A DNA stretch of 53,211 nucleotides, the filler included, from Basidiobolus ranarum (taxonomy: Eukaryota): NCBI GenBank assembly GCA_040143965.1. It is 3 parts of 3 records of this genome, joined end to end, with 100 filler letters (N's around TTAATTAATTAA, not from the genome) between each part and the next. Parts side by side here need not be neighbours in the genome. Positions count along the whole stretch, not along the records: positions 1 to 17,710 come from JASJQH010007171.1; 2 more parts are not named here. One strand, written 5' to 3'. The translations under genes and the position numbers were made by a program. Within the stretch, counting starts at the first letter, position 1; each line of letters starts with the position of its first letter. This document shows positions 1 to 35,582 of this stretch, in pieces. The notes under the pieces were generated by a model. That model did not search any database and was not told where the DNA came from. It was given only the letters and a program-made list of their open reading frames with translations.

Positions 1-44
1 CTTTGCTGTACAATGTATAAGTTTACTCAAGAATTAATGAACAG

Positions 45-266
45 ATGCCAGAGCCGCGCTGGGTTATTTCTATGGGCTCTTGTGCTAATGGTGGTGGCTA
101 CTATCATTATTCATATGCTGTTGTTCGGGGCTGTGATCGCATTGTGCCGGTTGATATTTACGTTCCAGGTTGTCCTCCTACCGCTGAAGCTTTGATGTAC
201 GGTGTCATGCAACTACAAAAGAAAATCAGACGAGGACGTGTTGCAACTATTTGGTACCGAAAGTAA
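45..266 (+). CDS. NDUFS7: NADH:ubiquinone oxidoreductase PSST/20 kDa Fe-S subunit, final exon (gene starts before the window)
   Basis: [50 protein letters not shown] is the highly conserved NuoB/PSST C-terminal half; preceded by splice acceptor acag (41-44); stop TAA 264-266. Confidence 0.97.
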
Positions 267-682
267 TACTACGGGTATTCTGTGGAGCGTTTTGTATCCC
301 ACCTCATCAACGTTGATGAATAAGAACATTTATAATGACGTTTTGGTTTGTACACTCAAGTAGCTCAAGGATAACCCATGTCTGGGTTTCAGCTTTACTA
401 TGTATTTAGTTTTGAATATAAGCCTTCATATCAAGAGTACTCATGTCGAAACGATAAACTGCGCTGAGCTTTTCAATATATAATCTCCCAATGATAATCA
501 AGATATGCTGATACTGAGATTTCAACGTTTCGAATTTATTAAAGATTTTAAATTAAAGATTCTATAAAACTAAGTATTAACGAATACTGATATTGCGTTC
601 ATCCTAGAGGCTTAGAACGTGGGTACTACATCGAATAAATGGATCAAAAATGAATTGTTCTCATACCTAACGCATCTCTTCC

Positions 683-2670
683 CTAATTACGCCTGGTGTA
701 TTTGCATGAAACAGGTGTTTGAGGAGTAACAAATAACTTGGTGTAATCAGGCTCAGGGAATTCTCTTCCAGGTACATTCTCGATTTCGAAGAGACGTACG
801 AGAGTTGCCAGAATAGTTTTGATCTGAACGTAAGCAAATGGCTCACCAATGCATCTATGACGTCCAGCTCCGAATGGAAGATAAGGATTTTTGGCGCCTT
901 TACCAGTAGTACCAAAGATCGAATCGTCGTCATCTTTCTCCGAACTGATATTGTTCCAACGACTAGCATTGAATTCCATAGGATTTTCGAAATGCTCCTC
1001 GGAGATTTGGGTAATAATAGGACTGGAGCAAAGGAAATGTCCCTTGGGTACCACTATATCGGATTTAGGATAATTGACAGCTTGGACTACTTTACGCATA
1101 ATTGCTACAATAGGTGTGTGCATACGAAGCGTTTCACGCACTAAATTATCCAGAACTTTACATTTGTTCAAATCATTGAAGTTAAGTGGCTCCAGTTCTT
1201 CTCCGAAAATCTCCTTTTGTTCAGCGTAAATTTGAGCACTAACAAATTTCAAAAATCAGTCAATTGGCTGACCATTGATAACCATTGTTTACATGTACTA
1301 ACCGAAGTTTAGGGTCGTATGCAATGTGCATCAGAGCCCAAGTTGAGGTAGCTGCACTAGTATGTTGACCAGCCATTAATAACGCAATCATCATATGAGC
1401 AACTTCCTTGTCGGTCATCTGGTGGCCATCTTTGTAGGTGGCGGTCATAAAATGCTGAAGAATGTCTTCATTGTTCTGGAAAAAAAGATTAGTAATGATT
1501 CCTACAAGCGCAAAATACCAAGAAAGTCAATTACCATATCTCCTTTTTGACGTCTATTCTCAATGATATTCAAGAAAATATTGGTTAATTTGATATGGGC
1601 CTCATCACGCTTTCTATAACTTGGAAGAGGAAGCCATTCGAAAAGGAAGTTAATGGGCTGAAAACCATTGTCCAAATCATGAAGTAGATGTGCAACTGTA
1701 GTCCAAGGATAGATTTGATACTTTTTAGAACGATCCAGAAATCTCTTATGTTAACAAAAAATATTACCTGTTTCATCGAGCTGAGAACGGATCTCTTTGC
1801 CCATTAGGCATCGGGAGGCAGTATTGATGATTAACTCAGCAAAGGCTACACTGATTTCCGCTTCGTCAGTAGTCTTATTCCAACGTCTGTTGAGGGTGAG
1901 GTTAGAAAACGAGGTGAGGAGATGGAAGGTACATATACAGATAATTACTTGAAATACTCCACAGTCTCCTCAACAATCATAGGAACGTAGGTTCTCAAAG
2001 CATCAAAAGAAAGACCCTCTTTGGCAAATCTACAACGGAAAGACTCGATTAGCCATCGCAAACTAACTAGGTGCCGTAGGAAGATGAAATACCGTTTTTG
2101 ATCCATCAGCATGTGGTTAGGACAGTCATAAACAACTCCCTCTCCGAATACGGGTTTCGTGAGAGGTCTGTATGCTTCTTCAGCATTGACATGGCTGTGC
2201 TTGGAATTTAGAACAAAGTTGTTTCCTTCAGTGCCAAGAGCATAGGTCATTTTACGTCCGAACATTAGGAAAGTGAAAACGTCGCCATACTAAATACATT
2301 AGTGGTGAATTTAATACTCTTCAATGAAATGGAAGATTCAGTCGATTAGCTTACCTTCTTACGGTTCTCAGTCAGAAAGTCCACAGGGTTCATCCCAAAG
2401 CTAATCATTGAGCCGATAAAGGGAACCCAGTATGGGACCATAGGAGGGGCATTCAGCTCTTTCTTACCGTACTAAATGTTGATAAATAGCAACAATGACG
2501 ATGACATTAATACACACTTCAGCATGTAACAAATAGGTAATGATAGTTGCCTTTTGATTGCACCAATCTGCTAGGACATAGACGATCAGCACACCAAGGG
2601 TGATGGTGAAGAAGTTGGTGAACTGGTGAACCGAGAGAAAGTTTTGAATGACATTTACTACTGCGCCCAT
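683..2670 (-). CDS. CYP51: Sterol 14-alpha-demethylase (cytochrome P450 CYP51); about 8 exons: 2551-2670, 2355-2471, ~2093-2289, ~1949-2029, ~1769-1886, ~1535-1695, ~1303-1475, 683-1238
   Basis: N-terminal TM anchor, PPMVPYWVPFIGS, AEEAY..LTKPVFGEGVVYDC (SRS1), I-helix MAGQHTS, ETLR (ExxR), heme motif FGAGRHRCIG; the predicted introns join the exons in frame. Confidence 0.97.
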
Positions 2671-4396
2671 AGTATCAGTAGTAGAGGATTAGAAAATGTG
2701 TGTGAACGCTTACCTGTCAACTCTACGTTTTTATTTTTGAAATGGTTTGCTCGTAGCTCTTACAAATTTGGAAAACACGAATTGATTGGATCGTGTCGAT
2801 GGGCCTAGTGCCTGGCCTAAGGATTCAAACTCCTATTTGGGAAGAAGCTGATAATGTATATTTTTGTTGTGTCTGATCTAATGATTCAACGGAACCAACT
2901 GTACTCTGTCAGTAAATGAGAAGTGGGCTAGATTTGGGTAATTGATTAGTTGCGTCCCTGCTCTGCCTTTTCCCCGCTTAAAAAGAATCTAGACAAAAAT
3001 AATGCATGAAGCGGAGATGCTCATGATTAACTTTATTGTGGTGGATTTGGAAGATTCTAGTATAATCAACCAGTTGATTGCAGTCTCAAATTGGGATAAA
3101 GCTAGCCAAACAGTGGAAAAACGATCAGAACTTCAATCTTAAATACTCTTGTAAGTGTTATTATTGTGAATCTAGATTCAGTTCGATCATTTCTTTTAAG
3201 TTTCCTGGAAACCCCCTAGATAAGAACATACCCCAAGCCAATTGTAAACCATTGAATATAATAGGGTATATTAAAAAGGTGTGGAGGTTGATTGTGGGGA
3301 TTAGAATGACTTCACGTTGATTATACCACAATATCGATAAAGCGTGGAATTTTACGGCCTCGACTACGTTCATGTATCAAGTCAACCTTGTGTTGGGTCA
3401 CCAAATAACCACCTAGAAGTGGCTATCGATTTCTGAGCAACATCAACCATTTAATTGTGGGTGGGGATTCTGTTGTTTCAAGCAGCTGTGAGTTCTAGAC
3501 AAACCTAATCTTCATTTTAAATATTCACATGTCAGATTGACGACTTAATATAAGAATCGGAATTTATTATCGTAAGCATGGAATATTTGGTGTAGATGGT
3601 ACAAACATGCAGAAATGTATAATAAACCTCAAGCTTGACTGGCCTTTGTGCCTAGTAATATATGGCATTTAGTACCTCTCACTTTATCTTCAGTATTTAT
3701 AGAATTTATTATTATCCTTTGATTTGAGAGCAATAGATATTCCGTTAAATACTACTCTTACTAAGCAAGCATCAAATCTTTAGAAGCTGAATAAAACGCC
3801 TTTTGTTAGACAAGTACCAACCTTTCATTTATGTATATTTCTCATCCACTGATAGACTGATTTCTAAGAATAAACGTCACTATATATTCATATGTATAGT
3901 GTCACCATCCAAGTGCATTCAGATATGTTGATGTTAGCTACTTGGAGATTGCCAGACATTACCATGTCAACAATAAAAAAATCACTTGAATGAAGTAAAG
4001 CAAGAATCGAAATAACACTTGAAATATAGGAATTGTCTGCTAGTGAAGAGTATAAGCAGGCAGATTTCAAGGTGTATGATATATCAGCTTCCGTCAGGTG
4101 CTAATTAAAAATAAGAACATTAGCAGTGGTTTTTAGCAATATTTCACTTTCTCAATGAGTACATTTCAATCAAGCTCACTTCGAGCAACAACCAATATCT
4201 CTCAAATCCATGTTCGCATCTTGTGGTGCTTGAGGCATGTATATCCCACGGGAAAGCATAAGCAAGTAGTTATCAAAGTTTGTTTATTTGATTACCAATT
4301 CCTGGTTTAATATATTTAGGGCCAGATTAATTGGGGGTCGACAATTGCATATGCATTTCATCATCAACCAAACCTCGAGAATGGTAATAATATATA

Positions 4397-4517
4397 CAGT
4401 GAAGCTGGGAAATATTGGTTAATTAACATCATTTAAATTTCTAAATTAATTGGGAAAATATTGGTTAATTAACATCATTTAAATTTCTAAATTAACCAAT
4501 ATTTCCCAGCTTCACAG
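4397..4517. mobile_element. MITE of Tc1/mariner type (121 bp, 28-bp TIRs, TA target-site duplication)
   Basis: Left TIR CAGTGAAGCTGGGAAATATTGGTTAATT (4397-4424); right TIR 4490-4517 is its reverse complement with one mismatch; TA on both sides; internal ~44-bp direct duplication; no ORF. Confidence 0.75.
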
Positions 4518-5388
4518 TATAGTATCCATATCCCACACTCAAATCATCCCGCCAACACTGCATCGTTAGCAGCTCCGAATCAATAATACTTCACGCAATC
4601 AATAGTTCACGCCCCTTCATCTGGCTGCATCTATTGGTTTAAAGACACGTCATCCGATGGACCAAATATGCTTAACTGTGTATGAAACCCTCGATGAGGC
4701 TATTTGTGCACTTCATAGTACACATTTGGTTATTGTTGATACCAACTTACCTGGATCCTGATTTGGTAATAAAGGAGTTTATTTAATAAGTCACGTTATT
4801 TCTTCTGAATTAGGATTTGTATGAGCCGTTGGCAGCTTCGCACATTCTTGTTAGCACTGACCAACAATTGGCGAGAGTATGAAATACAAGTATTCTCAAG
4901 CTAATTATTGGCATAGACAATATAAAGAAATTCGGGCGGGTGGTTGCTTAGTATCAAGCCATAGCTTCCAACTGTCAGGCACACGCTGTCTGCAACGGAG
5001 GAATTTCACTGCAGTCGCTGCGTGGCTTGTACATTTCGTGAGAGTAGAGATATCATTTGGTGAAAATCGAACACACAAATTACTGGGGAATGGATTAAGC
5101 CATGATCTACAGTGGTAATTTACCTTGAGTTCCATTAATGCTGAAACCAGTCTAGTCTTAGTCGAGCAGAGAGAGGGCGATTTACTAATCTTGGAGTCAA
5201 AATTACCAATGAAACGGTAATACTGCGAGATTAGGGAGTCAGTTGAGAGGTAAGAACCAACAAACTACTGAAATAGGAGTAATCAACATTTACAAGTTGT
5301 ATTTGGACTATCTTTGTCTTCTACTAACTACAAACACCCAACTAGTGCATAACAACTCAATACTTCAACTTTCTAGCCAGCAACAGAG

Positions 5389-6702
5389 ATGTCTGAGGTT
5401 TATTCTACCAACTTTAAGCTCAAGTGTGAGCCCAACACTATCAAGCCCTCTTCCATGGAGCAACCTTCGTTCCAAATGCCACTTACCTTGCGTCCAAATG
5501 CTTGCGTGATCTGTCTAACTTGCCTAACTTGTGCTGGAAAATACGGTTCTGACGATTGCCACTGTCCTGCTTCTGATATTCACTGGAATAAAAAAAGACT
5601 GGGATATAAAGTCGAGTTTCGCCGTCGTAGTATTTTACCTAGTAACCAAGTTTTTATGACTTGGTTTAGGGCTAACCTCTCCCAAAGATTAATCTGGGAC
5701 GAAACTTGTAAGGAGGTTAAACTTTGCATGTCTTGTAATTCGACATGTTGGAGGTGGGCTAAAGGTAGTACTTAGCTAAGTTTTATGGCATTCACCAAAT
5801 ATACTTACATTTTCCTCACTCATTCCAGTCTTCAAAAAAAGCAATCTCGCTAATGAACTGACTCCTGGAAGTAACGGGCTTCGTACCGCTCGATTCTCTC
5901 CTTTGAGAAGTATATCCACCTTTAGTTCAAGAAAAGATTCTGCCCAACGTACCCAAGGTTAAAGAGTGCTGTATATGATCATCAACCGCCCATTATTTTA
6001 ACGTGATTCGTATTAAATGTGAGTAGATTGTACTGATTTCTTTGCCGGCTCCTCTGTTTTATCCTTGAGAAATTCAAAGCCAAGGCTGTCGACAAGCATA
6101 AGGAGTTGTCCAGACCAATTTACTGCCGGGGAAAACCAGAATTTTTCGCCGATCTCAGTTCACAAATCCCTTCCTTTGGATATGGACACTCTGATGATGA
6201 CACCAACAAGAAGCACGCCCCCAGCCTTTAGCGAGAGTGACTCCGTATCCCAGTCATCCTCGCCTTCACCGCGACTGCAAACGCCTCCAAATGGAGAAAG
6301 TACCTTCTTAGTAACGTATGACCTAGCTCAATTGACAGCATCCGCTTCTCCTAAAGGTAGATATCTCATGACTTAAATTGAGCATCTATTGTGTAGTTTC
6401 TGACATAGTTTCACTCAGGAAAAACTCCACTGAAAACGGTTACTCTGCGTATGACGAAGAAAATCGTCAAAGATCGAATAGTAGTATCTCCGAAAATGAC
6501 ATTCAACCACCTAATACGACATGCAATACAATCCAACCTTCCCGAAGGAAAGCGCTATGTGATCAAGAGTATGGATGGACAATATGAATATGTACCAGAT
6601 GACTTTGTATCTGAAACGTTCTACGGACAGGAGCATGTAGACCTTAGTCTTGATGATGAAGCAGTACCTTCCATTAGCTTGGATGACTTCGATATGTGTT
6701 AA
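5389..6702 (+). CDS. Hypothetical protein: Cys-rich putative zinc-binding N-terminal domain, Ser/Pro-rich linker, small globular C-terminal domain; predicted exons 5389-5764, 5829-5958, 6027-6356, 6419-6702
   Basis: CVICLTCLTC..CHC and CMSC motifs in exon 1; three phase-1 GT-AG introns of ~60-70 nt link the ORF-track fragments into one frame. Confidence 0.7.
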
Positions 6703-9700
6703 GTAATACTATGGCTTGGTATGTAGTATGATAAACCCAGGAGTTGTATATCGTTCTGTATATATGTTTTGCCACTTGTCCTCTCCAATTTCGCGATTCC
6801 CTTTACGAATCTTTACTCCGAAAAATCATCTGCAGATAAATGTACATAAATTGTCTTGGTCTCGCTAATACGGTGTATTTTTATGAGGTTGGCTATTTTG
6901 ACGATAATTTTATTGTAGGAAGGAAATTCGATTGTTTTTCTTCTAAATTTGTACTCGAAGTCATCATTTGCTGTAGCGTTAATTCAAGAAACTTCATCGA
7001 TTATATCGATATGTTCTATATTTTCATTGATGCCAATAAAGCCCTGATTAATCGACTAATATATGTAATATAGTAAGCTTGTAACATTCTATTTCCTGTC
7101 TGGAGATGGTCTCAAGTGAGGGTTGTTTTATCAAATCGAATGATTGAAATCTTCGTACATACACCAGGTGCATTGCTGCCATAATAATGAATTGCTTAGT
7201 ATCCAAAGGGGATATTTTCAATTATTGGGTCAGCAAACAATTGTCATCGATACAGGTTTTCTTTTACGTCTTTGCATATGGTGTGAATCTTATTGACTTT
7301 GTCCTTGCTTCTTGTGGATTCTATCAGGGAATAGAAATAATGCATTCAAAAAATTCACAAGCTGTGCGCAAACTCTACATTTGCTTGGTACCCAAAGAGG
7401 CCCTGATGCCCAAGTTTTAGATGGTTCAGGAGTATATATCCATAGATTTGATCAGTGTGGTAAGCGGCCAGTAATGACTCCAGTAGTGTTAGACGTTGTA
7501 TAGTCTGAAAGGGAAAATCATTAGTGTTATAAGTGTTTCACACCTAACTCCTAATATTCTCCTAAATAACTTGCTTTTTGTGATAGATTGTGCTTGGTAA
7601 GGCCGATATCCATTAGCCACCCCTTATTACATAGCGGATTTTTATATTGCTGATTTGGAATCTGCTGTTCAATGTGATACTCTGAGGCTGATTGTCTTAC
7701 AGGTTCAAAAGTTGGTCATTATTCACAAGGGATGGCAAGTTTCTAGCGGGTTCTCTCATTACTAATATGTTGTGAAGCAACTGCAGAATATCTTATGATA
7801 AATTATTTAGTATGATTGATATTGTGAAGTCATCCATAAAAAAGCTATGATATAGCGGTGGGAAAAACTGAGTCAAAGCGCCAAAAGGCCAGAGTAAACA
7901 ACCATTGACACTTGGTTACATCGTGAAGGAATAAATTTATAGGATAGTGCTAATACGGTGGTATATTTTGAGTAATATTTAAACATATCTGCGAAATTTA
8001 GAATATAAACAATATGGAAATACTAATATTACTATGCTGCTTGACCTACAAACCTACAAATAAGTAATCAGAGGCTATAATTAACAGTCTTCACTAATGA
8101 GAATCTGTTGCTTTATAGGTATAGAGGCTTTATGTGAGCAGTAATCGACCTGACTGGGTTGCGGCAACAGTGGTGGGTATCAGTTCATGTTAGAACCGGA
8201 ATATATGCCGACTTACTTATGTTGTGATTAACTAGCCTGAAAGTGAGTGACAAATTTCAATCTAAGAACTCTCTAGTAAGCAATAGGTAATAGACACAGG
8301 TTAACCAAAAACAGTCAAACGTAGTTTCAAAATGCTAATGACTATTAAACCGTTAAATGCTATCAATAACTGTAGTTTTATTCGAGTTTTCATTGATATA
8401 TAGTACAGAATATAATACCTATATTGATTTGGGTGGCTGAATTCAACACCGTGTGGCACCACACATAAAGATAGCTAAATATCTCGGGTATATATCAGGT
8501 AGGAGTCGCAAATGACGAGTATCGTTCCCATTGAGCTAAATCAATACTTCCTCTAAAACACTCGCAGATAAATATTACCAGTAATAGTAGCTAACAAGTG
8601 TCACTAAAACCAGCCATCAGACTAAGAGTTGTTGAATTTTTTAGATTACTATATTCGATATCATATATCCAGTTGTACTTGACTCAGTAAACGGAAAAAG
8701 TTTAGTGAACTCCAAGCTTCATCAAATTTGACATATAATACTGTGATCTATATGTATTCTAAAGTCACATATGGTAACTGAGGATACAATTTAACTTTTA
8801 CTGTGTTGTTACTAATAAATAAATGCTGTTGTTCTCGAATTCTCCGCGACTCTCCACATTCATATGGCGAGTGAGTCTTGGTTAGGAGGTAGACTAGATT
8901 GATTGATATATAACAGAATATTTACCTCAGCGGAAAGAGCCATTTATGTAGAAACAACCAGTAGCGAAGAGGTATATCTAATTCTCTGGTTAGATATGAA
9001 TAATCAAATGAGTCAGCCTGAGATATCAAGCACTGTATAAGCATTCGTGAGGTGAAAGATAGGGAACAATTAAGTAAAATGCTGAACATCCAAGTGCACC
9101 TATTTGAAACAATACATGGGCAGTTTCATGTTGGTTGATGAGAACGAAAATATGGTCTTATAAACATAGGATTATGATACTATGAGTATTATGAAACCGG
9201 TTAGACCAGTTCTGCCACTTCTGACGATCAAGGATGGAGTGCCATTAATATGGGGGGAGCAGCTATAATTAGATATACTGCAATATAGCTGGAAAAGTCG
9301 AGTTGAATTAGGCCAAAAATGGTGATTTATAACATAACTCCACCGGAAAGACGAAGTTGACAGGCGCATAGTGAAGTGAATGAATCAGAAGATGTTTCAC
9401 CAAGAATGGAAGAAGTAGTCCATATTCTCATCACAGAAAACTACTTAGGGTTAGGCTTCAGTGTGCTTATCCAGAATTCTCGCAATTGCCAAGTAATCCA
9501 GAGGGTCAGAATTTACGCTCATTGAATTGAATTAGTATCTACACGCTCCAACTGGTATTGATGTAAACTAGAGTGTGAAATCCGGTGGTTGGTCATGATT
9601 GAATCAGACCCACCGGACTATCTCACATTGAAGAAATATATTCACTAAAACTGAAGGGCTGTACGTCTTTCATTTGACCGCATATTGCACTTCCTCTTTC

Positions 9701-10736
9701 GCCCTTAAAACGAAGCCAAGGCTGAATGAAGCCTTTGGCAGATGCATTTATATGAATTGGTCATACTTGCTACTGTAAAGAGTCACTACATCGTTATATT
9801 ACTACCTGCAGTAGTTCATAACGAATAGTTGGACAACGCTTAAAATGGCCTCATAAGGCTTCACATTCATTTAAAATCATCTGGTGACTCCACTTACAAT
9901 ACCGATAAGCCACCATAATTCTATAATGTCGAAGTTTTCTCAACTATTGGAAGTTGCATTCTGAGGTCTCACATATTAATAAGAAGCCTAGTAAGTGGGG
10001 TATATCCTTACTTGGCATATTATGATGGCTCAAGTTTCACTACGTTGATGTTGGCATACTTTGTAGGGTTCCATTCTATACACTTTAATATGCAAAATAT
10101 GAAGATGGCCCTATGGCATCGGATGCCTCCTCCTATCAAATGTAGGTTAAATAGAGTGTCTACTGCTTCATCAATAGGATTTTCTTGTGGAGTATGATAT
10201 CAGTGATCCTCTTACTCCTGAGATTAAATTGAGACGTTTTGTTGAGTATCTTTATTGCTACTATTAGGGGCAGTGGGACGAGAGCAGTCTAGGCATGCGA
10301 ACTAAATGAGAATTAGGCAGATTACTGACAATATGAGGATGATATTAAGATTTCCAATGTTTTGCCCTCAAAGTGTATTTGTAAATTTTGCAATGCTACG
10401 ATCAATTCTAATCAAGCAAGTTTCTTTATCTTCATAGTTCAATTAAGCCTTGAATGTGCACTTCCTCAGGGGTGTATAATTGAGTGAAATTCACTAGTTG
10501 AGTCGCTTATATAACGTAGACATGCTACCTTTTAGCTTTCAACTCAGGGCAGTTACTCTGGATCTTTAAAAGTTCCAAGTTTGCAAGTTAATAATCACAT
10601 TCATTATCTGTCCAACTCTCCAAGGAATCATAACTCTTGGTACCGCTTATTGTGTAGATTAGAATGTCAGGTATGATTGGCAAATTAAATGAATATACTA
10701 CCTTGTAAAAGATGTAAAGTTAATATTTTGTCTGTT

Positions 10737-11852
10737 ATGTTTGCTTTAGATCAAACTTCGATTGCCTGGGTGACGATGGTTGCCGATGTTTTCATCTCCA
10801 TGTCCTACATGGCCATCCCGATCGAGATCTTCTTCTTCCAACGTACCCTCACCTTACCTCTTCCTATGCTATACAAGAGTGTCTTACTTCTCTTCGAAGC
10901 ATTCATCACCGCATGTGGTGCTACTCACTTTGTAACCATGTGGAATCCTTTCTCGAACACTGATCTCGCTTTGTGCATTGTGAAGGTGATCACTGCAGTG
11001 GTCTCCACACTCACTGCTGCCCTCTTGATCCGAGTCTTTCCTAAAGCTTTCTCTTTGCCGGCAAAGGCAGCTTGGTTGGAAGAAGAGTTGGGATCTCACA
11101 TGCGACATGAACAATCGCTTCGCATGGCCAATGACCTTCTCCTCAAGTTTCGCAAAGTTACCCAACATATCCGTAAGACGCTCGATACGACCTCGGTATG
11201 TCAAACGGCAGTGTTTGAACTCTCAGTTGCATTGGGAGTTGGATGTGCCATTTATATGAAAGAAGGTGATATATATACCTGTATTCGCGAGGATTATAGG
11301 CACCTCAACGATCAATCACTGCGTCACTCAGATAAAGATATTTTTTGGCAGAAGATTGATATTTCGACGGAGAATAAAGTGATCAACAGAATGACCACCC
11401 TATCGTATGCCTGCTGTCTAAACAAACGCGACCTCTGTGATATGGTCGGAGACGGTGTGAACATACCATTCAAGGCAGCAATGGGAGCTCGCTTTCAACT
11501 TGGCGAGGCCAATTCCGGATTTGTGATGATTTATTCAAGTGACGAGACTTGGAGTTTACCTGAACAAGAAGTGGAGCTGTTTGAGGATATCGTAGGTCAA
11601 ATCGAAATCGCCTTACAGCAATCCGCTCAATTAAAACATGAACTTGACGGGAAATTCAATGAGACCAAGTCCTCTGAGCTTACTAAGGTTGAGGAAGATA
11701 ATGCGGTATTTAGGCTATCAACGCTACGACAAAATACCACTCTTTCCTTGCCACCACCACCTCCATTTTCACAAAACGAAGAAAAAGACGATGAGGTTTA
11801 TAATATGGAACCTCTGAATGGTGTCGTGGATCGAAATTCCCCGTTTCATTGA
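10737..11852 (+). CDS. ETR1-like ethylene receptor homolog: 3-TM ethylene-binding domain + GAF domain + poly-Pro tail, no histidine kinase/receiver (intronless; alternative in-frame ATG at 10689)
   Basis: DVFISMSYMAIPIEIFFF, LLLFEAFITACGATHFVTMW and KVITAVVSTLTAALL parallel plant ETR1 TM1-3 (DFFIAIAYFSIPLELIYF, FGAFIVLCGATHLINLW, KVLTAVVSCATALML); TQHIRKTLD...EVELFEDIVGQIEIALQQS are the GAF boundary helices. Confidence 0.92.
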   Translation: MFALDQTSIAWVTMVADVFISMSYMAIPIEIFFFQRTLTLPLPMLYKSVLLLFEAFITACGATHFVTMWNPFSNTDLALCIVKVITAVVSTLTAALLIRVFPKAFSLPAKAAWLEEELGSHMRHEQSLRMANDLLLKFRKVTQHIRKTLDTTSVCQTAVFELSVALGVGCAIYMKEGDIYTCIREDYRHLNDQSLRHSDKDIFWQKIDISTENKVINRMTTLSYACCLNKRDLCDMVGDGVNIPFKAAMGARFQLGEANSGFVMIYSSDETWSLPEQEVELFEDIVGQIEIALQQSAQLKHELDGKFNETKSSELTKVEEDNAVFRLSTLRQNTTLSLPPPPPFSQNEEKDDEVYNMEPLNGVVDRNSPFH

Positions 11853-12527
11853 TATTTTTCTCTCACCGACTATTGTGAGTTCTAGTAGTCTATAATTTAA
11901 TTTGCTTCATCATTCTGTAACAAAGTAATAAGGTAAAATTCATTTTAGCAATAGATTCCCGAAATTAGTATATTCATATCGAGATTTCATTGCTCCACCA
12001 GAAGCGGTTTGGATTCCCGCACCAAGAACCCTTGTACCCTTTACCCTATCATAGTTGCTAGTCAATGTGAATCAAGTAAGCTTACCAAAGTGATGATGTT
12101 CTGGTCCAATCCATTGATTTGTTATTATCTCCGATCAAGCTGATATTTTTGATGAAGTGTGTGCTATTCAAGTTATTAAATATTTTAAAAGATTTATTTT
12201 ACTTGATAGTAGATAGACAATGTTCTTCAAAAATGGACAATCTGAACCAAGTACCACGCTCTTCTCAAATTGTGAATCTGTTTTGGGTTGAGAGTTCTCT
12301 AATGTACAGAACCATTGTTGTAAATGAAGGTTGGATGCATTGGCATGAGGCCTTTTGATATGCACAAAAAATCCGATATTTACATGAATCTCGAAATTAT
12401 GATACATTTTTATATATGCAGAAAGTGAAAATGCGTCAAGAATCGTCTGAAAAAGGGAGGTTAGAGGTCTTCTCAAAGTGTTGTGGTACATTCATCTCTC
12501 TAATCGTATGGAGGATCAAGCCTCATC

Positions 12528-15500
12528 TTAAGACTTGGATTTTTTAAATCTAAACTGATCCAGCTTACTTTTGCTTTTCAATGGTAATGCGTCTGTAGGC
12601 ACATTTGTCGAGGGATTACTGATGCGTGTAGTTTCTGTGGTAGGTGGCCTGTGTTTTTCGGTTTGGTTTAGCTCTTGGACCTCTTCGGTGGGATGACCTC
12701 CGGTTGATTTACGCGATGACAAGATCTTGGCCACCTCACGCCAATTACCAAATTTGACATTTTTTGGAAACGAAGGGATCTCCTGTATTACCGATTTCTT
12801 TCGCACATTCGAATCATACCGCATGGTCTGATGGCTGGCCAGTTTCGACAAATGTAACTCTTCAGTTGGTGAAGAATTATGGAAGTCCAAGGTAATGTCA
12901 TCTGAAATATCAGAAACTTCTATATTTGGATGCCTCTTTTCCGATATCGTGCTCTGGCCCAAGCGTTGTGGAGAATGCTGATATTTGGATCTCAATAGAG
13001 ATATACTGGTCGACGAGTCCAAATGTTTTCGGCTCTCGGATAAATCATGTCCGATAGACGAACTTTTCTTGCCTGGTAAGTTGACAGATTGTTGTCCATT
13101 CATAGGCTCAAGGTTTTCCTGGAGCTGGTGTGGATCTCCAAGGGCCGCCATCTCCTGTTCTATGGTATCATCGATAAAGATGTCATCATCAGATTGGGAT
13201 ACGTTAATAGTTACGGCGGCATGAGGGGTAGAAGTATAGCTGATCTCGGGGCTTTGAGGAATGACAGGATACTTTTCATTGAACTCTATATCTTCCAGAT
13301 CTATCTCTATTGGGGCCGTCGTACTCGAATTGGGACGACCTCTCACTTTGATATCATATCGGTCATTTACGGGGCCACCATCATAGCCTTGCAAAGCTGT
13401 TGATGAAGATGAATGTGAAGTGGATGGTTTAGCGCAAGTACCATCATCAAAGATACCCTCTATACCTTGCATAATCATGAAATCATCTGCGTCGTCTTCA
13501 AGGTCCATCAACTGCGGGAAATTTTCTTCGATAAGAATTGACTGCGTTTTAGTTGATTTCGATTGAGCAGGCTTACTGTTTCCTTTTAATACTCTTGGTT
13601 TTTTCAGTGGGAGGTGGTGAGTTTTTAACGGAATAACGTCACTCATATTGAGATGCTCTTGTAATTGTAACCCATACAGATCTTCTTCATCATTGATAAA
13701 TCCAAGTGTTTCCATTCCACTCATTATATTAACGAAATCGATGGTTCGCTGAGAATGGGGAACTGTGTATGTCGAGGTAAGCGTGGTTTGATATTTGGCA
13801 AACTTGGAGAGGGACACATTTGAACTCTCGATCCTACTAAGGAAACGAATGTATTGTCCCTCAATGTCATCGTCCATATCTTTGATCATATGTACATCTT
13901 GCTCAATTGTTTTTCGACGTGACTTTTTAGCCACTTTGACTTGATATTCGGGGATAGTCAGGGTTTCTTTAACGCACACTGGACTAACATCCGCAGGCAA
14001 TAACTTCGGATTCCCGTTAAAGAGAGTAATCTTAGCACCAGAAGCGATGGCACGTTGGATCAACTTGTAGGAATTTTGAGATTGCTTGTACATCTGTTCT
14101 TCTTTCCCTTCCGACAATAACATACAAATTCTGCCTTGGCGCTTACGACCAGTACGCCCCATTCGTTGTAAAAGTCGAATTGGTGAGTTGTGAGAATCGT
14201 AGCATATGATTAGATCCACTTCTCCAATATCTAAACCTTCTTCGCCGATCGAGGTGGAGACGATTACATTATACCCGCCTTCTTTAAACTGTGCCAACAC
14301 TGCTAGTTGTTCCTTTTGCGAAAACCCTTTCTTGGCTTTTTTGGAGGCTTGACCTATAAAAGACATGGGTCTTATCATAGGTGAATGGGTATCCAATGCT
14401 TTAACGATCTCCTCCACGGATTCACGATATTCAGCAAATATCATGACACGAGTTTGTCTTTGGGCATGAACTTCCAAGCCATCATTATCTGCCTCATGAT
14501 TCACAAAATAATTCACGATATAAGAGACCAGTTTCTCCAATTTCGGATGACCAATGAATGTCGGCTCATTTAGCATTTTTTCGATACGAGTCATAAGATC
14601 CACAAAAGTGGGATTTTTGAGTAAATCCTGACGGGCACGAGATATCTTTTTTCCATCCTTAGCTTCTTGAACAATCCCATAAAGTGCGTTGTAAAACGGA
14701 CGAATCCCATGTTGACGTAAAAGGCTATAAGCATGGGAGAGCGCGAGACAAATACCAAAATCAGCTTCGCCAATAGCGTTTTGATCAGGGGGAGCAGCTG
14801 CGGAGCCGCTACGGAATTTGTTGCGCGCCAAGATAAGCATATATTTCGACACCTTTGACGGGTCTTTTTCCCAAATCGCCTGCATTCTGCAGAGACGAGA
14901 TGTGTAAACCTCCATACAGCTGCAGAACTGTTTACAAATCTCGTTGATCTTACTTGTTAAAGGGACCACGATGACATCGATTTTTCTACCATGAGTATAT
15001 TTTTGAATATCAAGCGATTCTTCTGATCTAAGCTCAATATGAGAGATCATTAAATTGTTGACAACATCTTGTACTGTAGCCGTATCTGTCCCTGGTGTAG
15101 CAGAAAGGGCCAACACTCGAAATAGGGGATTTTTGGCGGAAAGTTCCCTGATAACCACACAATTTGCTTGTTCACCGCGGGCTCTATGTGCTTCATCTAC
15201 CACCAAACATACAATATCTTGAGCAGGGCATGTTCCACGTATCAAATCATTTTGTAGAACATGCGGTGTTAAGAAAAAGATTCTTTTCTTGAGCCAAGCG
15301 ACTTTTCTATTTTCAGGTGATATAGCTCCGGTGATTTCGACAGTATCCTCTTGAGAGATTCCGCATATATTATGACACGCTTCAATTTGTTGAGCCACTA
15401 AGGGTCTCGTGGGCGCCATAAATACAATCTTCGATTTAGGAAACCAGCGATAATGATTATACATCACCACGGCGGCGATAAATGTTTTTCCCAAACCAGT

Positions 15501-16251
15501 TGGAAGAGATACTAAGGTGTTTTGAAATAATGCTTTGGATACAATATTAAATTGATACTCACGAAGTGGATAATTCATAGGATACACCCATGTATTAATT
15601 GTATCTGGATCACAGTTGGAAGGGTCCAAAGAAGAGTCCGGTGTATACTTTATAATGGAATTCGATCCACCTGACATTTTCTGTTTAAATGATACAATCT
15701 TAGTAAAATGTGATAGACAATTATCAGAAAGTTATACGTACAAGTGGTTTTTTGCTCGCTTTGATAGAAGTGGGGGAGTTCTCCTTTTCCATGGCAAACA
15801 TATTCCAAAGAGTTTTTTGGTTTCCAGTACTAGTAGTGGTGTTTGTACTCTTTTTCTTATTATTAGTTGGTTTGGGTATCGTTCTATTACGTGAAGTTGG
15901 TGGATTGTGTGACATTCCCTAAAAAGCAATTTAATATAAAAAGTTTAAGGACAGTACAACATCCATAGGTAAGTAGAATAAATTTATAAATACAGGAAAG
16001 GATGTTGAATTGCTGAAATCCGAATCAAAATTGTTGGACCCATTCTTAGGATAAGAAGGTTTGGAAGCGGTTTGATGCGAATGCTGGGGAAATGTTGTTC
16101 TCTGAGGCTGTACTTCATTATCATACGCTGTGCCGTTTGAATAGTCTTTTCCTGGATTAGAGGAGACCGCCTGCTTCTCCATTTGGTCAACAGCAGCTAA
16201 GAAAGCATCATCCAAGGGTAGATCATCAAAGTCGTCAAATTCATCTGCCAT
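12528..16251 (-). CDS. MPH1: ATP-dependent DNA helicase Mph1/FANCM/Fml1 family; 3 exons approx 15994-16251, 15743-15918, 12528-15680
   Basis: WVYPMNYPLREYQFNIV, Walker A LPTGLGKT, DEAH box VVDEAHRA, LSATPG, TSIGEEGLDIGEVD, QRMGRTGR; two phase-0 GT-AG introns connect the upstream acidic exon (MADEFDDFDD); low-complexity C-terminus with no ERCC4-like domain recognised. Confidence 0.95.
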
Positions 16252-17325
16252 GACCAGAGTGTATCAATTTCGAAATACGTCAAGAAGAAAAACTTGGGAA
16301 AAGTTAAAAAAAGAAGAGTGACAAACAGGTGTGTTTACTTGGTTAAAAGCACAGAAATCATGTTATGGTCGCATAAAGCTCGTCGAATTGTTTATTTTTT
16401 ACATTTACAGTCACTATTGTGGATATTTGAATTTGATCACACTTGTAGAGGTAGTTTAGTGAATGTTTTGTAATTTAGTGCAGCTATTTAACCAAATGAA
16501 ATTTCATGCTAATTTCTTAACGTATCGATTGGCTTAAAAGAAATATTTTTGAAAAATCAATATGACAGAATTCTACTTTACTGCGGTTGAATGGGCAATT
16601 TGAATTGATACGAAACTTGATGGCAAGAAGGATCAAAATTAATATTCCAGTGCCTAGTGATGAGCTAGGCCACACTTTATGTTGTTTCTTCTCAAGATTG
16701 TATATGCTTTAAAGAATACATGTTGGCGGTAGCATTTACAGGCTAAATACCACATCCAGAATTCAGCCATGAATCATGCTAGTCACCTCCGTTTAAGCAA
16801 AAGAGTGTCCAGTTAAACTAGCACCAACAATTATGTGAGAAGTCACTTTAGATGCACATAGACTGGTATCACCAAAACTGATAGAACAAATGAATACATA
16901 GCTTACGACTGTGCCTAAAGTGAATCTCAAGTCAGATCATTAGTCTACAACAATGCCTCTCCCCAGAGACTACGAGGACTCCAGAATCGATTCAATGAAA
17001 TCTCAAGACATTCCTACCCTTGTCGCTCTAATCACTTCCATGTGGAATCATTGCGTGATAGATTGTGAGCGCATAATTATTCTTATGATTGGAATTCATC
17101 ATCTTAATCTGCTGTTACAATGGCATATTCCTAGATAGAATTTATTTGAAATAAGCTATTTTCGAGGTGTGTGAACGACATCGAGATGATTGAAGTGTTC
17201 ACTTAAGATCATTAAATAATTATATATCGATTTGTACAGAAAATTGTAGGAACTTACTCCACCCTCAGAGTTTATGTCACAGATTTAAAGATGTCCACCT
17301 TCTCCAGGAGATCAAAACGAGATAA

Positions 17326-17710
17326 TCAGTTCCAATACTTTGGTTCCATGTCGTATTCTTCGTAATCTTGTATATCTTCACTTGAAAACGGAGGCGGTGG
17401 TGGAGGTGGCGGTGAGGAAGATTTAATGACCGGATGTACTGCACTTTGTCTTAAGGATGATAATCCTTGATCACTGAGATATCTTTGATTTCTCACATTA
17501 TGTGTATAACTTGACATTGGTAATTTCTTGGAGTATTCGTTTTGAAGTTGAGCGGATTGTTGTAATGCAATCTCAATTTGACCTACGATATCCTCAAACA
17601 GCTCCACTTCTTGTTCAGGTAAACTCCAAGTCTCGTCACTTGAATAAATCATCACAAATCCAGAATCAACCTCTTCAAGTTGAAATCGAGCTCCCATTGC
17701 TGCCTTGAAT
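17326..17710 (-). CDS. Second ETR1-like paralog, 3' part only (end of GAF + poly-Pro tail); 5' part lost at contig end
   Basis: FKAAMGARFQL..SGFVMIYSSDETWSLPEQEVELFEDIVGQIEIALQQSAQL is nearly identical to the protein at 10737-11852; ends PPPPPPPPFSSEDIQDYEEYDMEPKYWN-stop. Confidence 0.9.
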
Positions 17711-17810
17711 NNNNNNNNNNNNNNNNNNNNNNNNNNNNNNNNNNNNNNNNNNNNTTAATTAATTAANNNNNNNNNNNNNNNNNNNNNNNNNNNNNNNNNN
17801 NNNNNNNNNN
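17711..17810. other. Artificial contig-joining spacer
   Basis: 44 N + TTAATTAATTAA (stops in all six frames) + 44 N, exactly 100 nt, identical to the spacer at 35483-35582. Confidence 0.97.
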
Positions 17811-18317
17811 ACAGTGGAGCCTAACGAGACTTTCAGAGCTGCCGGTTGGGGACAAACCGAAAAGGTAGTGAACTCAAAGCAATTACGTGAGGTTCAAGTT
17901 CAAACCACTCCGTTCTCCGTATGTGCACAGTATGTAACTAACTTCAAGGATTACAACGGTTCTCAAATTTGCACTGGAATGACTCCTGGTCGAGACACTT
18001 GTGGTGGGGACAGCGGGGGTCCGCTATTTCGGTCCGAGGATGGTGTGTTGAAATTAGTAGGACTAACCAGCTATGGTGCCTTTAATCCTAATGATCGGTT
18101 AAAATGTGGAGGAAAGGGTTCGGTTGGTGTTTACACTCATGTGCTATCTTATATGGAATACATTGAGGGTGTAACCGGACTGAGCTTCAACGAACTCACC
18201 TCTTCAGAGTTTCGCCATCAAGCAGGGTACGTGGTGTCAGCTTTATCCACGAATTCACTCGCAAAGTCCATGGTTCCTCTTCTAGTAGCTTCAGCAATAT
18301 TCATGTTCAAAGTATAG
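17811..18317 (+). CDS. Trypsin-like serine protease (S1A), C-terminal part; 5' end cut by contig boundary
   Basis: AAGWG, QICTG, DTCGGDSGGP (catalytic Ser; Asp at the S1-pocket position), LVGLTSYG, GVYTHV; hydrophobic C-terminal tail. Confidence 0.93.
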   Translation, partial: TVEPNETFRAAGWGQTEKVVNSKQLREVQVQTTPFSVCAQYVTNFKDYNGSQICTGMTPGRDTCGGDSGGPLFRSEDGVLKLVGLTSYGAFNPNDRLKCGGKGSVGVYTHVLSYMEYIEGVTGLSFNELTSSEFRHQAGYVVSALSTNSLAKSMVPLLVASAIFMFKV

Positions 18318-29700: not shown

Positions 29701-29973
29701 CTCATGACTACCAAATGTGGAAGTGAATTAATTATAGATCACTCAGCCAATGAGCTCCCCATTAATTGTGGCGTATATAACAATGACGAGGGGCATGATT
29801 CGGATGTCTTTTTTCTCACACAACCTAGCTTGAATTTTTGCTTCTACTTGCTTGTTTACTCAAGTACTCATCGTAACTAACTTCACTTCAAACCTCAAGG
29901 GTGTGTGTACCCCCCATCGTATCAAATATCGATTCTTTCTTCAAGTAGTCTTTAAATATTGCAAACGAAAAGC

Positions 29974-35482: not shown

Positions 35483-35582
35483 NNNNNNNNNNNNNNNNNN
35501 NNNNNNNNNNNNNNNNNNNNNNNNNNTTAATTAATTAANNNNNNNNNNNNNNNNNNNNNNNNNNNNNNNNNNNNNNNNNNNN
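35483..35582. other. Artificial contig-joining spacer
   Basis: 44 N + TTAATTAATTAA + 44 N, identical to 17711-17810. Confidence 0.97.

What the first reader, a model, noticed from the sequence alone, without database searches (positions are those of the whole stretch)
11750..11815. Conserved PPPPPFS...acidic-Y-x-MEP tail motif in place of the kinase in both ETR-like paralogs
Seen: after the GAF the two paralogs diverge strongly, yet both keep LS(T/S)LRQ, a poly-Pro run ending PFS, and an acidic (E)xY(N/D)MEP element (PPPPPFSQNEEKDDEVYNMEP vs PPPPPPPPFSSEDIQDYEEYDMEP at ~17338-17412, minus). Known: poly-Pro tracts bind SH3/WW/EVH1/profilin domains and YxxPhi-like motifs mediate sorting. Inference: this short linear motif is the candidate output or trafficking module, and its retention argues against simple truncation.
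Basis: partly seen in the sequence, partly recalled or inferred. Interest (0 to 1): 0.7.

Follow-up and report, generated by a model that had tools for sequence, protein, structure and literature searches.

The report
Conserved tail motif on kinase-less ethylene sensor
A fungal (Basidiobolus) ethylene-receptor-like membrane protein that has lost its kinase ends in a short disordered tail with two small sequence islands kept across paralogs and species, which suggests a docking site of unknown partner.

Summary
Gene A (10664-11852, +) encodes an ETR1-type ethylene-binding domain, a GAF fold, a long helix and a roughly 40-residue disordered tail with PPPPPFS...YNMEP (11751-11813). Copy B (17329-17709, -) has the same elements, but a contig end cuts off its 5' part. 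The organism is Basidiobolus ranarum. No kinase-coding sequence is in the window, and the stop-codon position is shared with homologs.

Of 8 Basidiobolus tails found, 7 keep the motif and 1 (P0006) has lost it. Between the two old tail subtypes the linker is 18% identical, PPPFS 100% and the Y-box 55%. Eight of the 10 invariant tail columns fall within 20 columns (simulated p about 0.002). Six of 13 conserved motif codons differ synonymously, so recent gene conversion is unlikely to explain the match.

Only PFS-x-x-[DE] is kept in 7 of 7, and a penultimate Trp in 6 of 7. LSxLRQ may be a relic of the kinase H-box; the evidence is weak and comes from type B only.

Kinase-less Basidiobolus ETR homologs are already published; I found no description of the tail motif. 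It is most likely a docking motif with an unknown partner. Interest is moderate.

The parts
10664..10670 (+). Exon 1 of gene A (ATG TCA G)
   Evidence: The deposited 100%-identical protein P0003 starts MSDQTS. The DNA gives ATGTCAG followed by GTATGA.
10671..10749 (+). Intron (79 nt, GT..AG with a pyrimidine tract). The open frame through it (MNILPCKRCK...) is probably not translated.
   Evidence: sequence compared with the P0003 N-terminus; inference from the deposited model.
10750..11852 (+). Exon 2 of gene A, through the stop codon at 11850-11852
   Evidence: ORF; translation; 100% match to P0003.
10761..11057 (+). Three-helix ethylene-binding domain (Pfam ETR1_N), residues 25-123 of P0001, including Cys76 and His80
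   Evidence: E 1.9e-21, 76.6 bits against a cut-off of 27. D33, Y40, I43, P44, C76, G77, T79, H80 and others are at least 90% conserved in 63 relatives.
11190..11615 (+). GAF-fold domain, residues ~168-309
   Evidence: Pfam GAF is sub-threshold (E 0.12). The AlphaFold2 model is confident here. Foldseek top hits are GAF domains (6ozb, 3ci6, 4g3v; prob 1.00, TM-score by target 0.65-0.74).
11562..11735 (+). Long C-terminal helix, residues 292-349. It runs from the last GAF helix through the variable linker and LSTLRQ and stops just before the poly-Pro run.
   Evidence: DSSP H292-349. pLDDT falls from 95 to about 52 along it.
11715..11732 (+). LSTLRQ element; possible relic of the HisKA H-box helix
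   Evidence: Coordinates. Conserved L and S. MAFFT places it on the H-box of kinase relatives. The window scan supports this for type B only; hhalign does not.
11751..11771 (+). PPPPPFS: a poly-Pro run of variable length in the family, plus the invariant PPPFS core. The Ser is always followed by an acidic residue at +3.
   Evidence: Mixed Pro codons (CCA/CCT/CCG).
11772..11798 (+). Acidic spacer of 9-10 residues; its sequence is variable and its net negative charge is kept
11799..11813 (+). YNMEP: the Y-(D/N)-(M/T)-(E/K)-P island
11814..11849 (+). Divergent end of copy A (LNGVVDRNSPFH). It lacks the penultimate Trp that the other 6 intact tails keep.
17329..17709 (-). Copy B, last 127 codons only (end of GAF plus tail); stop codon at 17326-17328. 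The 5' part is cut off by the contig end.
   Evidence: P0019 is the deposited fragment.
17446..17463 (-). LSSLRQ element of copy B
   Evidence: Best match in the Conidiobolus and Entomophthora pseudo-kinases is their degenerate H-box.
17341..17412 (-). PPPPPPPPFSSEDIQDYEEYDMEP of copy B, followed by KYWN and the stop
17711..17810 (.). Artificial contig joiner (N44, TTAATTAATTAA, N44); not biological sequence

Best explanation
Gene A and the partial copy B encode kinase-less ethylene-receptor-like membrane proteins of Basidiobolus ranarum. Each has a three-helix copper/ethylene-binding domain, a GAF domain and a long helical stalk of about 58 residues. The stalk ends at a proline run and is followed by an acidic, disordered tail of about 40 residues, presumably cytosolic.

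The tail carries two islands kept by purifying selection:
- PPPFS, with an acidic residue at +3 of the Ser;
- (E)-x-Y-(D/N)-(M/T)-(E/K)-P-x-x-W close to the C-terminus.

My reading is that these islands form a lineage-specific short linear docking motif. It would tie the sensor to a cytosolic partner, or control its turnover or sorting. The variable proline run would act as a helix stop and a stiff spacer rather than as the binding site itself. Signal output would then come from protein-protein contacts (GAF, stalk and tail) and not from phosphotransfer, as reported for the Arabidopsis ETR1(1-349) fragment and the rice OsERS2 GAF domain.

Shown here: the domain content, the absence of a kinase, disorder of the tail in the model, and conservation of the islands above the rest of the tail.

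Inferred: cytosolic topology (by analogy with ETR1), selection as the cause of the conservation, and docking as the function. The partner is unknown.
For: Domains:
- ETR1_N E 1.9e-21.
- GAF fold by Foldseek on a model with mean pLDDT 85.
- Cys76 and His80 at least 90% conserved among 63 relatives.

No kinase:
- No HisKA or HATPase_c hit on the protein or on the tails, even at E up to 10.
- tblastn of five relatives' kinase parts against the whole window gives only noise (best E 1.4).
- The stop position is shared: KYWN* in 3 of 3 type-B tails, and NWP*/NWH* in 3 of 4 intact type-A tails.

Conservation:
- 7 of 8 tails keep the motif.
- A-versus-B identity over 12 pairs: linker 18%, post-element 13%, spacer 21%, PPPFS 100%, Y-box 55%.
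- 8 of 10 invariant tail columns lie within 20 of 85 columns, reached in 441 of 200,000 simulations.

Not recent gene conversion: between the two window copies the linker is 35% identical in DNA. In the 21 motif codons, 13 encode the same residue and 6 of those 13 differ synonymously. In LSxLRQ, 3 of the 5 conserved codons differ synonymously.

Disorder: residues 350-387 have pLDDT of about 50 and no secondary structure, and the helix 292-349 ends before the proline run.

Precedent for kinase-independent output (passages read): ETR1 residues 1-349 signal without the kinase domain and without CTR1 (PMC3933193). The OsERS2 GAF domain binds and inhibits the histidine kinase MHZ1/OsHK1 (PMC6981129).
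Against: - Only 8 tails from 2 species are known. They fall into two subtypes, so the number of independent lineages is small.
- The segments were cut at the motifs themselves, which biases those identities upward. One search is the unanchored control.
- One paralog (P0006) has lost the motif, and copy A itself has replaced the penultimate Trp by GVVDRNSPF. The tail is therefore dispensable, or decaying, in some copies.
- No canonical ligand class fits all tails: SH3 class I/II 0 of 7, WW 0 of 7, YxxPhi 0 of 7, LIR 0 of 7, EVH1 class I 4 of 7, PP..F 6 of 7, five or more Pro 5 of 7 (recalled patterns).
- The tail was not found on any other protein: one search returned only the query among 25 candidates, and one search gave no usable hit.
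- There is no expression or 3'-end evidence.
Confidence: 0.55

Rival explanations
1. The tail is a decaying leftover of the lost histidine-kinase region with no present function of its own. LSxLRQ would be the old H-box helix. The Pro/Ser-rich part and the terminal aromatic residues would be leftovers of the catalytic domain's insert loop and of the strand before the G1 box. The islands would simply be the slowest-decaying pieces.
For: - A global MAFFT alignment lays LSxLRQ on the H-box of kinase relatives, (I/S)SL..PP on the [IV]SL..PP segment after the N-box, and P-F-S on P-[AIF]-[SE] just before the G1 strand.
- The type-B element's best ungapped match is the degenerate H-box in Conidiobolus (rank 1 of 299 windows) and Entomophthora (rank 1 of 271).
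- That stretch of the Entomophthora protein matches Pfam HisKA just below threshold (26.3 bits against 26.9).
- Type-B PPPFS+8 best matches SLPASSKDVQDSL in Conidiobolus, at a collinear position, reached by 0 of 100 shuffles.
- P0006 has lost the motif and copy A has lost the Trp.
- The literature reads these proteins as 'gene erosion' (PMC5285503, passages).
Against: - hhalign gives no support: E 0.25 and 0.69, and at a different place.
- The type-A element ranks only 20-35 in all five relatives. Type B ranks 5, 11 and 11 in the other three.
- 19 of the 20 motif scans are matched or beaten by 10 or more of 100 shuffles.
- A collinear alignment with cheap long deletions gives z from -1.3 to 2.7. 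Only 4 of 35 pairs were reached by at most 3 of 100 shuffles, and none of the 20 pairs involving P0001, P0004, P0007 or P0005 was.
- Neutral decay does not explain why the islands survive while the adjoining linker fell to 18% protein and 35% DNA identity.
- A relic origin and a present function are not exclusive.
Confidence: 0.25
2. The similarity of the islands reflects sequence homogenisation (gene conversion) between paralogs, not selection on the peptide.
For: The end of the GAF domain in the two window copies is 92% identical in DNA, with 28 consecutive identical codons (11517-11600 in copy A). This looks like conversion. Contigs also break inside these genes.
Against: Conversion tracts would carry synonymous sites along. 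In the motif, 6 of 13 same-residue codons differ synonymously. The Pro codons are mixed. The flanks on both sides are unalignable at 35% DNA identity. The islands are also shared between species and subtypes.
Confidence: 0.07
3. The gene models are incomplete: the tail is followed by further exons (a kinase or another module), so the 'tail' is really an inter-domain linker.
For: This is a eukaryote with introns, and no transcript data could be consulted.
Against: - tblastn finds no kinase-like sequence anywhere in the window.
- Only 675 bp separate the stop of gene A from the end of the convergent FANCM-like helicase frame.
- Similarity to homologs runs up to the stop codon and ends there (KYWN* in 3 of 3 type B).
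- Independent JGI and NCBI gene models in two species end at the same place.
Confidence: 0.05

Closest known systems
Truncated ethylene-receptor homologs of Entomophthoromycotina (Basidiobolus Bm|388937|, Conidiobolus CcHHK3; kinase-less ETRs of Ancylistes)
   Same: Same family and, for Basidiobolus, the same set of proteins: three-helix ethylene-binding domain plus a single GAF, no receiver, and a kinase that is incomplete or absent (PMC5285503, passages; bioRxiv 10.1101/2023.12.22.573025, passages). The B. meristosporus homologs are 75-82% identical.
   Different: The passages I read treat the truncation as erosion and do not mention a conserved tail. The Conidiobolus, Neoconidiobolus and Entomophthora relatives (576-626 aa) still carry a degenerate HisKA/HATPase_c without the H-box His, and they have no PPPFS...YxMxP tail. 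Figures and supplements of both papers were not seen.
Arabidopsis ETR1 and its ETR1(1-349) fragment
   Same: The ethylene-binding domain with the Cys/His pair, then GAF, then a helix. The Basidiobolus proteins (338-369 aa) are natural counterparts in length and content of the 1-349 fragment, which signals without the kinase domain and without CTR1 (PMC3933193, passages).
   Different: ETR1 has HisKA, HATPase_c and a receiver. The Basidiobolus N-terminus, as modelled (MSDQTS...), lacks the N-terminal Cys pair that ETR1 uses for disulfide dimers (recalled). The tail motif has no counterpart in the plant-like relatives retrieved.
Rice OsERS2 GAF domain acting on histidine kinase MHZ1/OsHK1
   Same: A precedent for an ethylene receptor whose output runs through its GAF domain binding another kinase (PMC6981129, passages).
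   Different: No partner kinase has been identified here, and OsERS2 keeps its own kinase domain.
Proline-rich ligands of SH3, WW, EVH1 and profilin, and CK2-type acidic Ser sites (ELM classes, recalled)
   Same: A proline run in a disordered acidic tail. Minimal PxxP is present in 7 of 7 tails, PFS-x-x-[DE] in 7 of 7, and PP..F in 6 of 7.
   Different: The canonical class-defining residues are missing: SH3 class I/II 0 of 7 and WW 0 of 7. The run length varies from 3 to 9 Pro, so a profilin-type run is not conserved.

Membership tests
Ethylene receptor family (ETR1-like) | N-terminal three-helix ethylene-binding domain (Pfam ETR1_N, PF25487) | tested here: met
   residues 25-123, E 1.9e-21, 76.6 bits against a cut-off of 27. 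The homologs P0004 and P0005 also match.
Ethylene receptor family (ETR1-like) | Copper-ligand Cys and His in helix 2 (ETR1 Cys65/His69; numbering recalled) | tested here: met
   C76 and H80 of P0001 lie in columns at least 90% conserved among 63 relatives. The motif ACGATH is visible.
Ethylene receptor family (ETR1-like) | GAF domain after the membrane domain | tested here: met
   Pfam is only sub-threshold (E 0.12). The predicted fold matches solved GAF domains (6ozb, 3ci6, 4g3v, prob 1.00).
Ethylene receptor family (ETR1-like) | Histidine-kinase core (HisKA with phospho-acceptor His, HATPase_c) | tested here: not met
   No hit. tblastn of relatives' kinase parts against the window gives only noise. 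The protein ends about 75 residues after the GAF domain.
Ethylene receptor family (ETR1-like) | Ethylene and copper binding | not testable with these tools
   Needs a labelled-ethylene binding assay on expressed protein.
HisKA H-box relic | The LSxLRQ element is homologous to the F-L-A-x-x-S-H-E-x-R-T-P helix | tested here: inconclusive
   For: MAFFT placement; type B ranks 1 of 299 and 1 of 271 windows in two pseudo-kinases. Against: type A ranks 20-35; hhalign E 0.25-0.69 at a different place; collinear alignment z at most 2.7.
SH3 / WW ligand motifs (ELM, recalled patterns) | [RK]xxPxxP or PxxPx[RK]; PPxY | tested here: not met
   0 of 7, 0 of 7 and 0 of 7 intact tails.
EVH1 / profilin ligands (recalled patterns) | [FYWL]PxPP; a run of at least 5 Pro | tested here: not met
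   4 of 7 (type A only) and 5 of 7. P0010 has only 3 Pro and P0007 only 4.
Tyrosine-based sorting signal YxxPhi (recalled pattern) | Y-x-x-[LMVIF] | tested here: not met
   0 of 7 intact tails.
CK2-type phosphorylation site (recalled pattern) | S-x-x-[DE] at the invariant Ser of PFS | tested here: met
   7 of 7 tails fit the pattern. This is a loose pattern in an acidic tail, and actual phosphorylation was not tested.
Short linear motif in a disordered region | Conserved island flanked by unconserved, disordered sequence | tested here: met
   conservation; pLDDT about 50, no secondary structure after residue 349.

The most novel reading that the evidence does not exclude
A gas sensor whose output is a peptide motif and not an enzyme. 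In this reading, ethylene (or another small ligand) binding in the membrane domain is passed through the GAF domain and stalk, and changes how a pair of disordered C-terminal tails is presented. Their PPPFS(phospho-Ser?) and YxMxPxxW islands would recruit a Basidiobolus-specific cytosolic partner. This would be a natural, evolved version of the 'N-terminal signalling' seen with the engineered Arabidopsis ETR1(1-349). The type-A and type-B genes are kept as linked convergent pairs and might work as heteromers.
Probability: 0.2. Interest if true: 0.65.

Novelty: new variant of a known kind. Interest (0 to 1): 0.4.

Why it matters
How ethylene receptors signal without kinase activity is still an open question in plants. 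Fungal homologs have so far been read only as eroded leftovers. A selectively kept tail motif on naturally kinase-less receptors gives a concrete handle: a peptide of about 25 residues for pull-downs and mutagenesis. With it one can ask whether these proteins still signal, and through what. If the motif turns out to be inert, the 'gene erosion' reading stands, and the case is ordinary.

Tried and rejected
- Whole-genome search: no genome is held for this window.
No transcript evidence was therefore obtained.
- Homodimer prediction for residues 125-387, two copies: the verdict was 'no answer', because a control scored higher than the pair. It is not used as evidence either way.
- Tail-only searches. 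Pfam at E up to 10 gave nothing meaningful (one search was a frame slip, corrected). The protein database searched with P0005 residues 312-357 returned only the query among 25 candidates of 196-625 aa; longer and shorter proteins were not searched with the tail. The ESM Atlas gave no usable hit.
- Relic-of-kinase tests. hhalign aligned only the 15 columns after the GAF domain and then gave E 0.25-0.69 at a non-H-box place. The collinear long-deletion alignment was mostly at shuffle level. Motif scans of the PPPFS and terminal parts gave one hit in 20 scans that no shuffle reached (one search was the same script and timed out).
- An idea I dropped: the in-frame N-terminal extension MNILPCKRCK looked as if it might supply an ETR1-like Cys pair. 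It lies in a canonical GT..AG intron of the deposited model.
- Short EBD-GAF hits from the representatives search (P0137, P0025, P0115, P0027) look like partial models or plant-like sequences. They have no similar tail.
- Earlier findings of this scan: three look-ups, nothing returned.
- Literature: searches found no description of the tail motif. The figures and supplements of the two fungal ETR papers were not seen.
Full report
**What is there**

The window is not one molecule. It consists of three contigs joined by artificial linkers (N44, TTAATTAATTAA, N44) at 17711-17810 and 35483-35582.

Contig 1 (1-17710) comes from Basidiobolus ranarum. The ORF product P0001 is 100% identical over 95% of its length to a deposited B. 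ranarum protein (P0003, 369 aa) recorded on a 17,710-base contig.

Gene A:
- The open frame 10689-11852 (+) gives 387 residues.
- Its first ~20 codons are probably intron. P0003 starts MSDQTS, which fits exon 10664-10670, a GT..AG intron at 10671-10749, and exon 2 from 10750.

Copy B runs on the minus strand from 17709 to a stop at 17326-17328. It is cut off by the contig end, so only 127 codons are visible.

**The observation**

- Copy A reads ...FRLSTLRQNTTLSLPPPPPFSQNEEKDDEVYNMEPLNGVVDRNSPFH*.
- Copy B reads ...LSSLRQSAVHPVIKSSSPPPPPPPPFSSEDIQDYEEYDMEPKYWN*.
- The motif lies at 11751-11813 in copy A and at 17341-17412 in copy B.

**Domains**

- Pfam finds the ethylene-binding domain ETR1_N at residues 25-123 (E 1.9e-21). 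GAF is only sub-threshold (E 0.12).
- An AlphaFold2 model built on a 63-sequence alignment has mean pLDDT 85.
- The GAF part of that model matches solved GAF domains in Foldseek with probability 1.00.
- Cys76 and His80 sit in columns at least 90% conserved among the 63 relatives. By recall these correspond to the copper ligands Cys65/His69 of ETR1.
- The model shows one long helix, residues 292-349, running from the last GAF helix through the variable linker and LSTLRQ. It stops just before the proline run. Residues 350-387 have pLDDT of about 50 and no secondary structure.

**No kinase**

- Neither the protein nor the isolated tails hit HisKA or HATPase_c, even at E up to 10.
- tblastn with the kinase parts of five relatives finds only noise in the whole window (best E 1.4).
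- Downstream of gene A there are 675 bases before the end of a convergent FANCM-like helicase frame.
- Similarity to homologs runs to the stop codon: KYWN* in 3 of 3 type-B tails, and NWP* or NWH* in 3 of 4 intact type-A tails.

**Homologs**

The word-indexed search over 212-678 aa gave 7 hits: the deposited protein itself, four B. meristosporus proteins (338-357 aa, 75-82% identical), and two distant metagenomic kinases.

The exhaustive search of representatives gave 4,420 hits at E up to 0.001. Close relatives were only P0005, P0010 and P0019. Next came:
- 576-626-aa proteins of Neoconidiobolus, Conidiobolus and Entomophthora;
- full hybrid kinases of Paraphysoderma and Rozella.

A search among shorter proteins added P0162.

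That makes 8 Basidiobolus tails:
- Type A: P0001, P0162, P0004, P0007, and the degraded P0006.
- Type B: P0002, P0005, P0010.

Both types occur in both species, so the A/B split is older than the species split. Seven of the 8 tails keep the motif. P0006 reads ...SIQSSYPSQEKQCDTTPM instead.

**Is the motif more conserved than the rest of the tail?**

A-versus-B identity over the 12 pairs:

| Segment | Identity |
|---|---|
| End of GAF | 88% |
| Linker | 18% |
| First six residues of LSxLRQ | 49% |
| Stretch after LSxLRQ | 13% |
| PPPFS | 100% |
| Acidic spacer | 21% |
| Y-box (8 residues) | 55% |

Those segments were cut at the motifs, which favours them, so I repeated the test on an unanchored MAFFT alignment. 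Ten of 85 tail columns are identical in all 12 pairs, and 8 of the 10 lie within a 20-column stretch (PPPFS, E, Y, P). Random placement reached this clustering in 441 of 200,000 trials.

At the DNA level, between the two window copies:
- The linker is 35% identical.
- In the 21 motif codons, 13 encode the same residue, and 6 of those 13 differ synonymously.
- In LSxLRQ, 3 of the 5 conserved codons differ synonymously.
- The Pro codons are mixed.

This argues for constraint on the peptide, not recent gene conversion or slippage.

By contrast, the end of the GAF domain is 92% identical in DNA, with 28 identical codons in a row. That does look like conversion, and it may be why the assembly breaks inside these genes.

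**What the conserved core is**

- The proline run varies from 3 to 9 residues, so the run itself is not the conserved unit.
- Kept in 7 of 7 intact tails: PPPFS with an acidic residue at +3 of the Ser, a net acidic spacer of 9-10 residues, and Y-(D/N)-(M/T)-(E/K)-P.
- A Trp at the penultimate position is kept in 6 of 7. Copy A is the exception: GVVDRNSPF stands where the Trp should be.

Patterns recalled from ELM, as matches among the 7 intact tails:

| Pattern | Matches |
|---|---|
| YxxPhi | 0 of 7 |
| Dileucine | 0 of 7 |
| LIR | 0 of 7 |
| SH3 class I | 0 of 7 |
| SH3 class II | 0 of 7 |
| WW PPxY | 0 of 7 |
| EVH1 class I | 4 of 7 |
| PP..F | 6 of 7 |
| Five or more Pro | 5 of 7 |

**Origin**

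A global alignment with kinase-bearing relatives places LSxLRQ on the H-box (FLAxxSHExRTP). In the Conidiobolus, Neoconidiobolus and Entomophthora proteins the H-box has already lost its His.

In support of a relic origin:
- An ungapped scan puts the type-B element first at exactly that degenerate H-box in Conidiobolus (1 of 299 windows) and Entomophthora (1 of 271).
- The Entomophthora stretch scores just under the HisKA threshold.
- Type-B PPPFS+8 has one notable match in Conidiobolus, reached by 0 of 100 shuffles.

Against it:
- Type B ranks only 5, 11 and 11 in the other three relatives.
- Type A ranks 20-35 everywhere.
- hhalign does not support the match.
- The other 19 scans are at shuffle level.
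- A collinear alignment allowing long deletions is mostly at shuffle level (z -1.3 to 2.7; 4 of 35 pairs reached by at most 3 of 100 shuffles).

I therefore treat 'LSxLRQ is an H-box relic' as a plausible lead for type B, not as a result.

**Mechanism**

The best reading, at 0.55, is a lineage-specific short linear docking motif on a disordered, probably cytosolic tail. The proline run would serve as a helix stop and spacer. Output would go through protein contacts rather than phosphotransfer.

Precedents (passages read):
- Arabidopsis ETR1(1-349) signals without its kinase domain and without CTR1 (PMC3933193).
- The OsERS2 GAF domain binds and inhibits the kinase MHZ1/OsHK1 (PMC6981129).

Rivals:
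- A functionless, slowly decaying kinase relic (0.25).
- Homogenisation by gene conversion (0.07).
- Incomplete gene models (0.05).

**Comparison with what is known**

Truncated ETR homologs of Basidiobolus and Conidiobolus were reported in 2017 and read as gene erosion (PMC5285503, passages). A 2023 preprint reports that Entomophthoromycotina ETRs keep the ethylene-binding residues and one GAF, lack the receiver, and have an incomplete or absent kinase (10.1101/2023.12.22.573025, passages).

The kinase-less architecture is therefore known. A conserved tail motif is not mentioned in the passages I read, nor in searches. PMC6324907 does not mention Basidiobolus at all. I did not see figures or supplements.

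**Verdict**

- The specific functional readings (YxxPhi, SH3, WW) are not met.
- This is a new detail on a known kind of protein. It is of moderate interest and testable with peptides.

Noticed in passing
window 17711-17810 and 35483-35582: The window is three contigs joined by artificial N44-TTAATTAATTAA-N44 linkers. Features that run into these points (copy B, the trypsin-like frame) are cut by the assembly, not by biology.
   Followed up: yes
window 11517-11600 (+) versus 17578-17661 (-): 28 consecutive identical codons, and 92% DNA identity over the last 55 GAF codons, between the two copies, while their tails are unalignable in DNA. This suggests gene conversion confined to the domain part and may explain why contigs break inside these genes.
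   Followed up: partly
window 10664-17709; also P0162/P0010 and P0005/P0006: Type-A and type-B genes sit as a convergent pair around a FANCM-like helicase. In all 3 cases the type-B gene has a type-A gene recorded on a contig of the same length: 17,710; 6,638 (locus tags ..271 and ..273); and 169,885. The 6,638-base contig is about the distance from mid-gene A to mid-gene B in the window, so the whole block seems to be duplicated in B. ranarum.
   Followed up: partly
window 10671-10749: The long ORF's first codons (MNILPCKRCK..., with two Cys) lie in a canonical GT..AG intron of the deposited model. The ETR1-like N-terminal Cys pair is therefore probably absent from the protein.
   Followed up: partly
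window 11814-11849: Copy A ends LNGVVDRNSPFH, where its closest paralog P0162 ends LNWH. Nine residues stand in place of the otherwise conserved Trp.
   Followed up: partly
window 12528-15731 (-): 1,067-codon open frame with DEAD, Helicase_C and FANCM-MHF-binding domains: a FANCM/Mph1-like DNA helicase, convergent with gene A.
   Followed up: partly
window 17811-18317 (+): C-terminal half of a trypsin-family serine protease (Pfam Trypsin, E 1.8e-17). It starts at the beginning of contig 2, so it is cut by the assembly.
   Followed up: partly
window 45041-46237 (-): 398-codon frame with PAS_3, PAS and a weak PAS_2 match. It may be part of a PAS-bearing sensor kinase of the kind the 2023 preprint calls Entomophthoromycotina-specific.
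   Followed up: no
window 29956-32409 (+): 817-codon open frame with no Pfam match at E up to 0.001.
   Followed up: no
P0010 and P0162 (not in the window): Both deposited B. ranarum models are 193 aa and start at the same Met in the middle of the GAF domain. They are most likely cut by the ends of their 6,638-base contig and are not real short isoforms.
   Followed up: no
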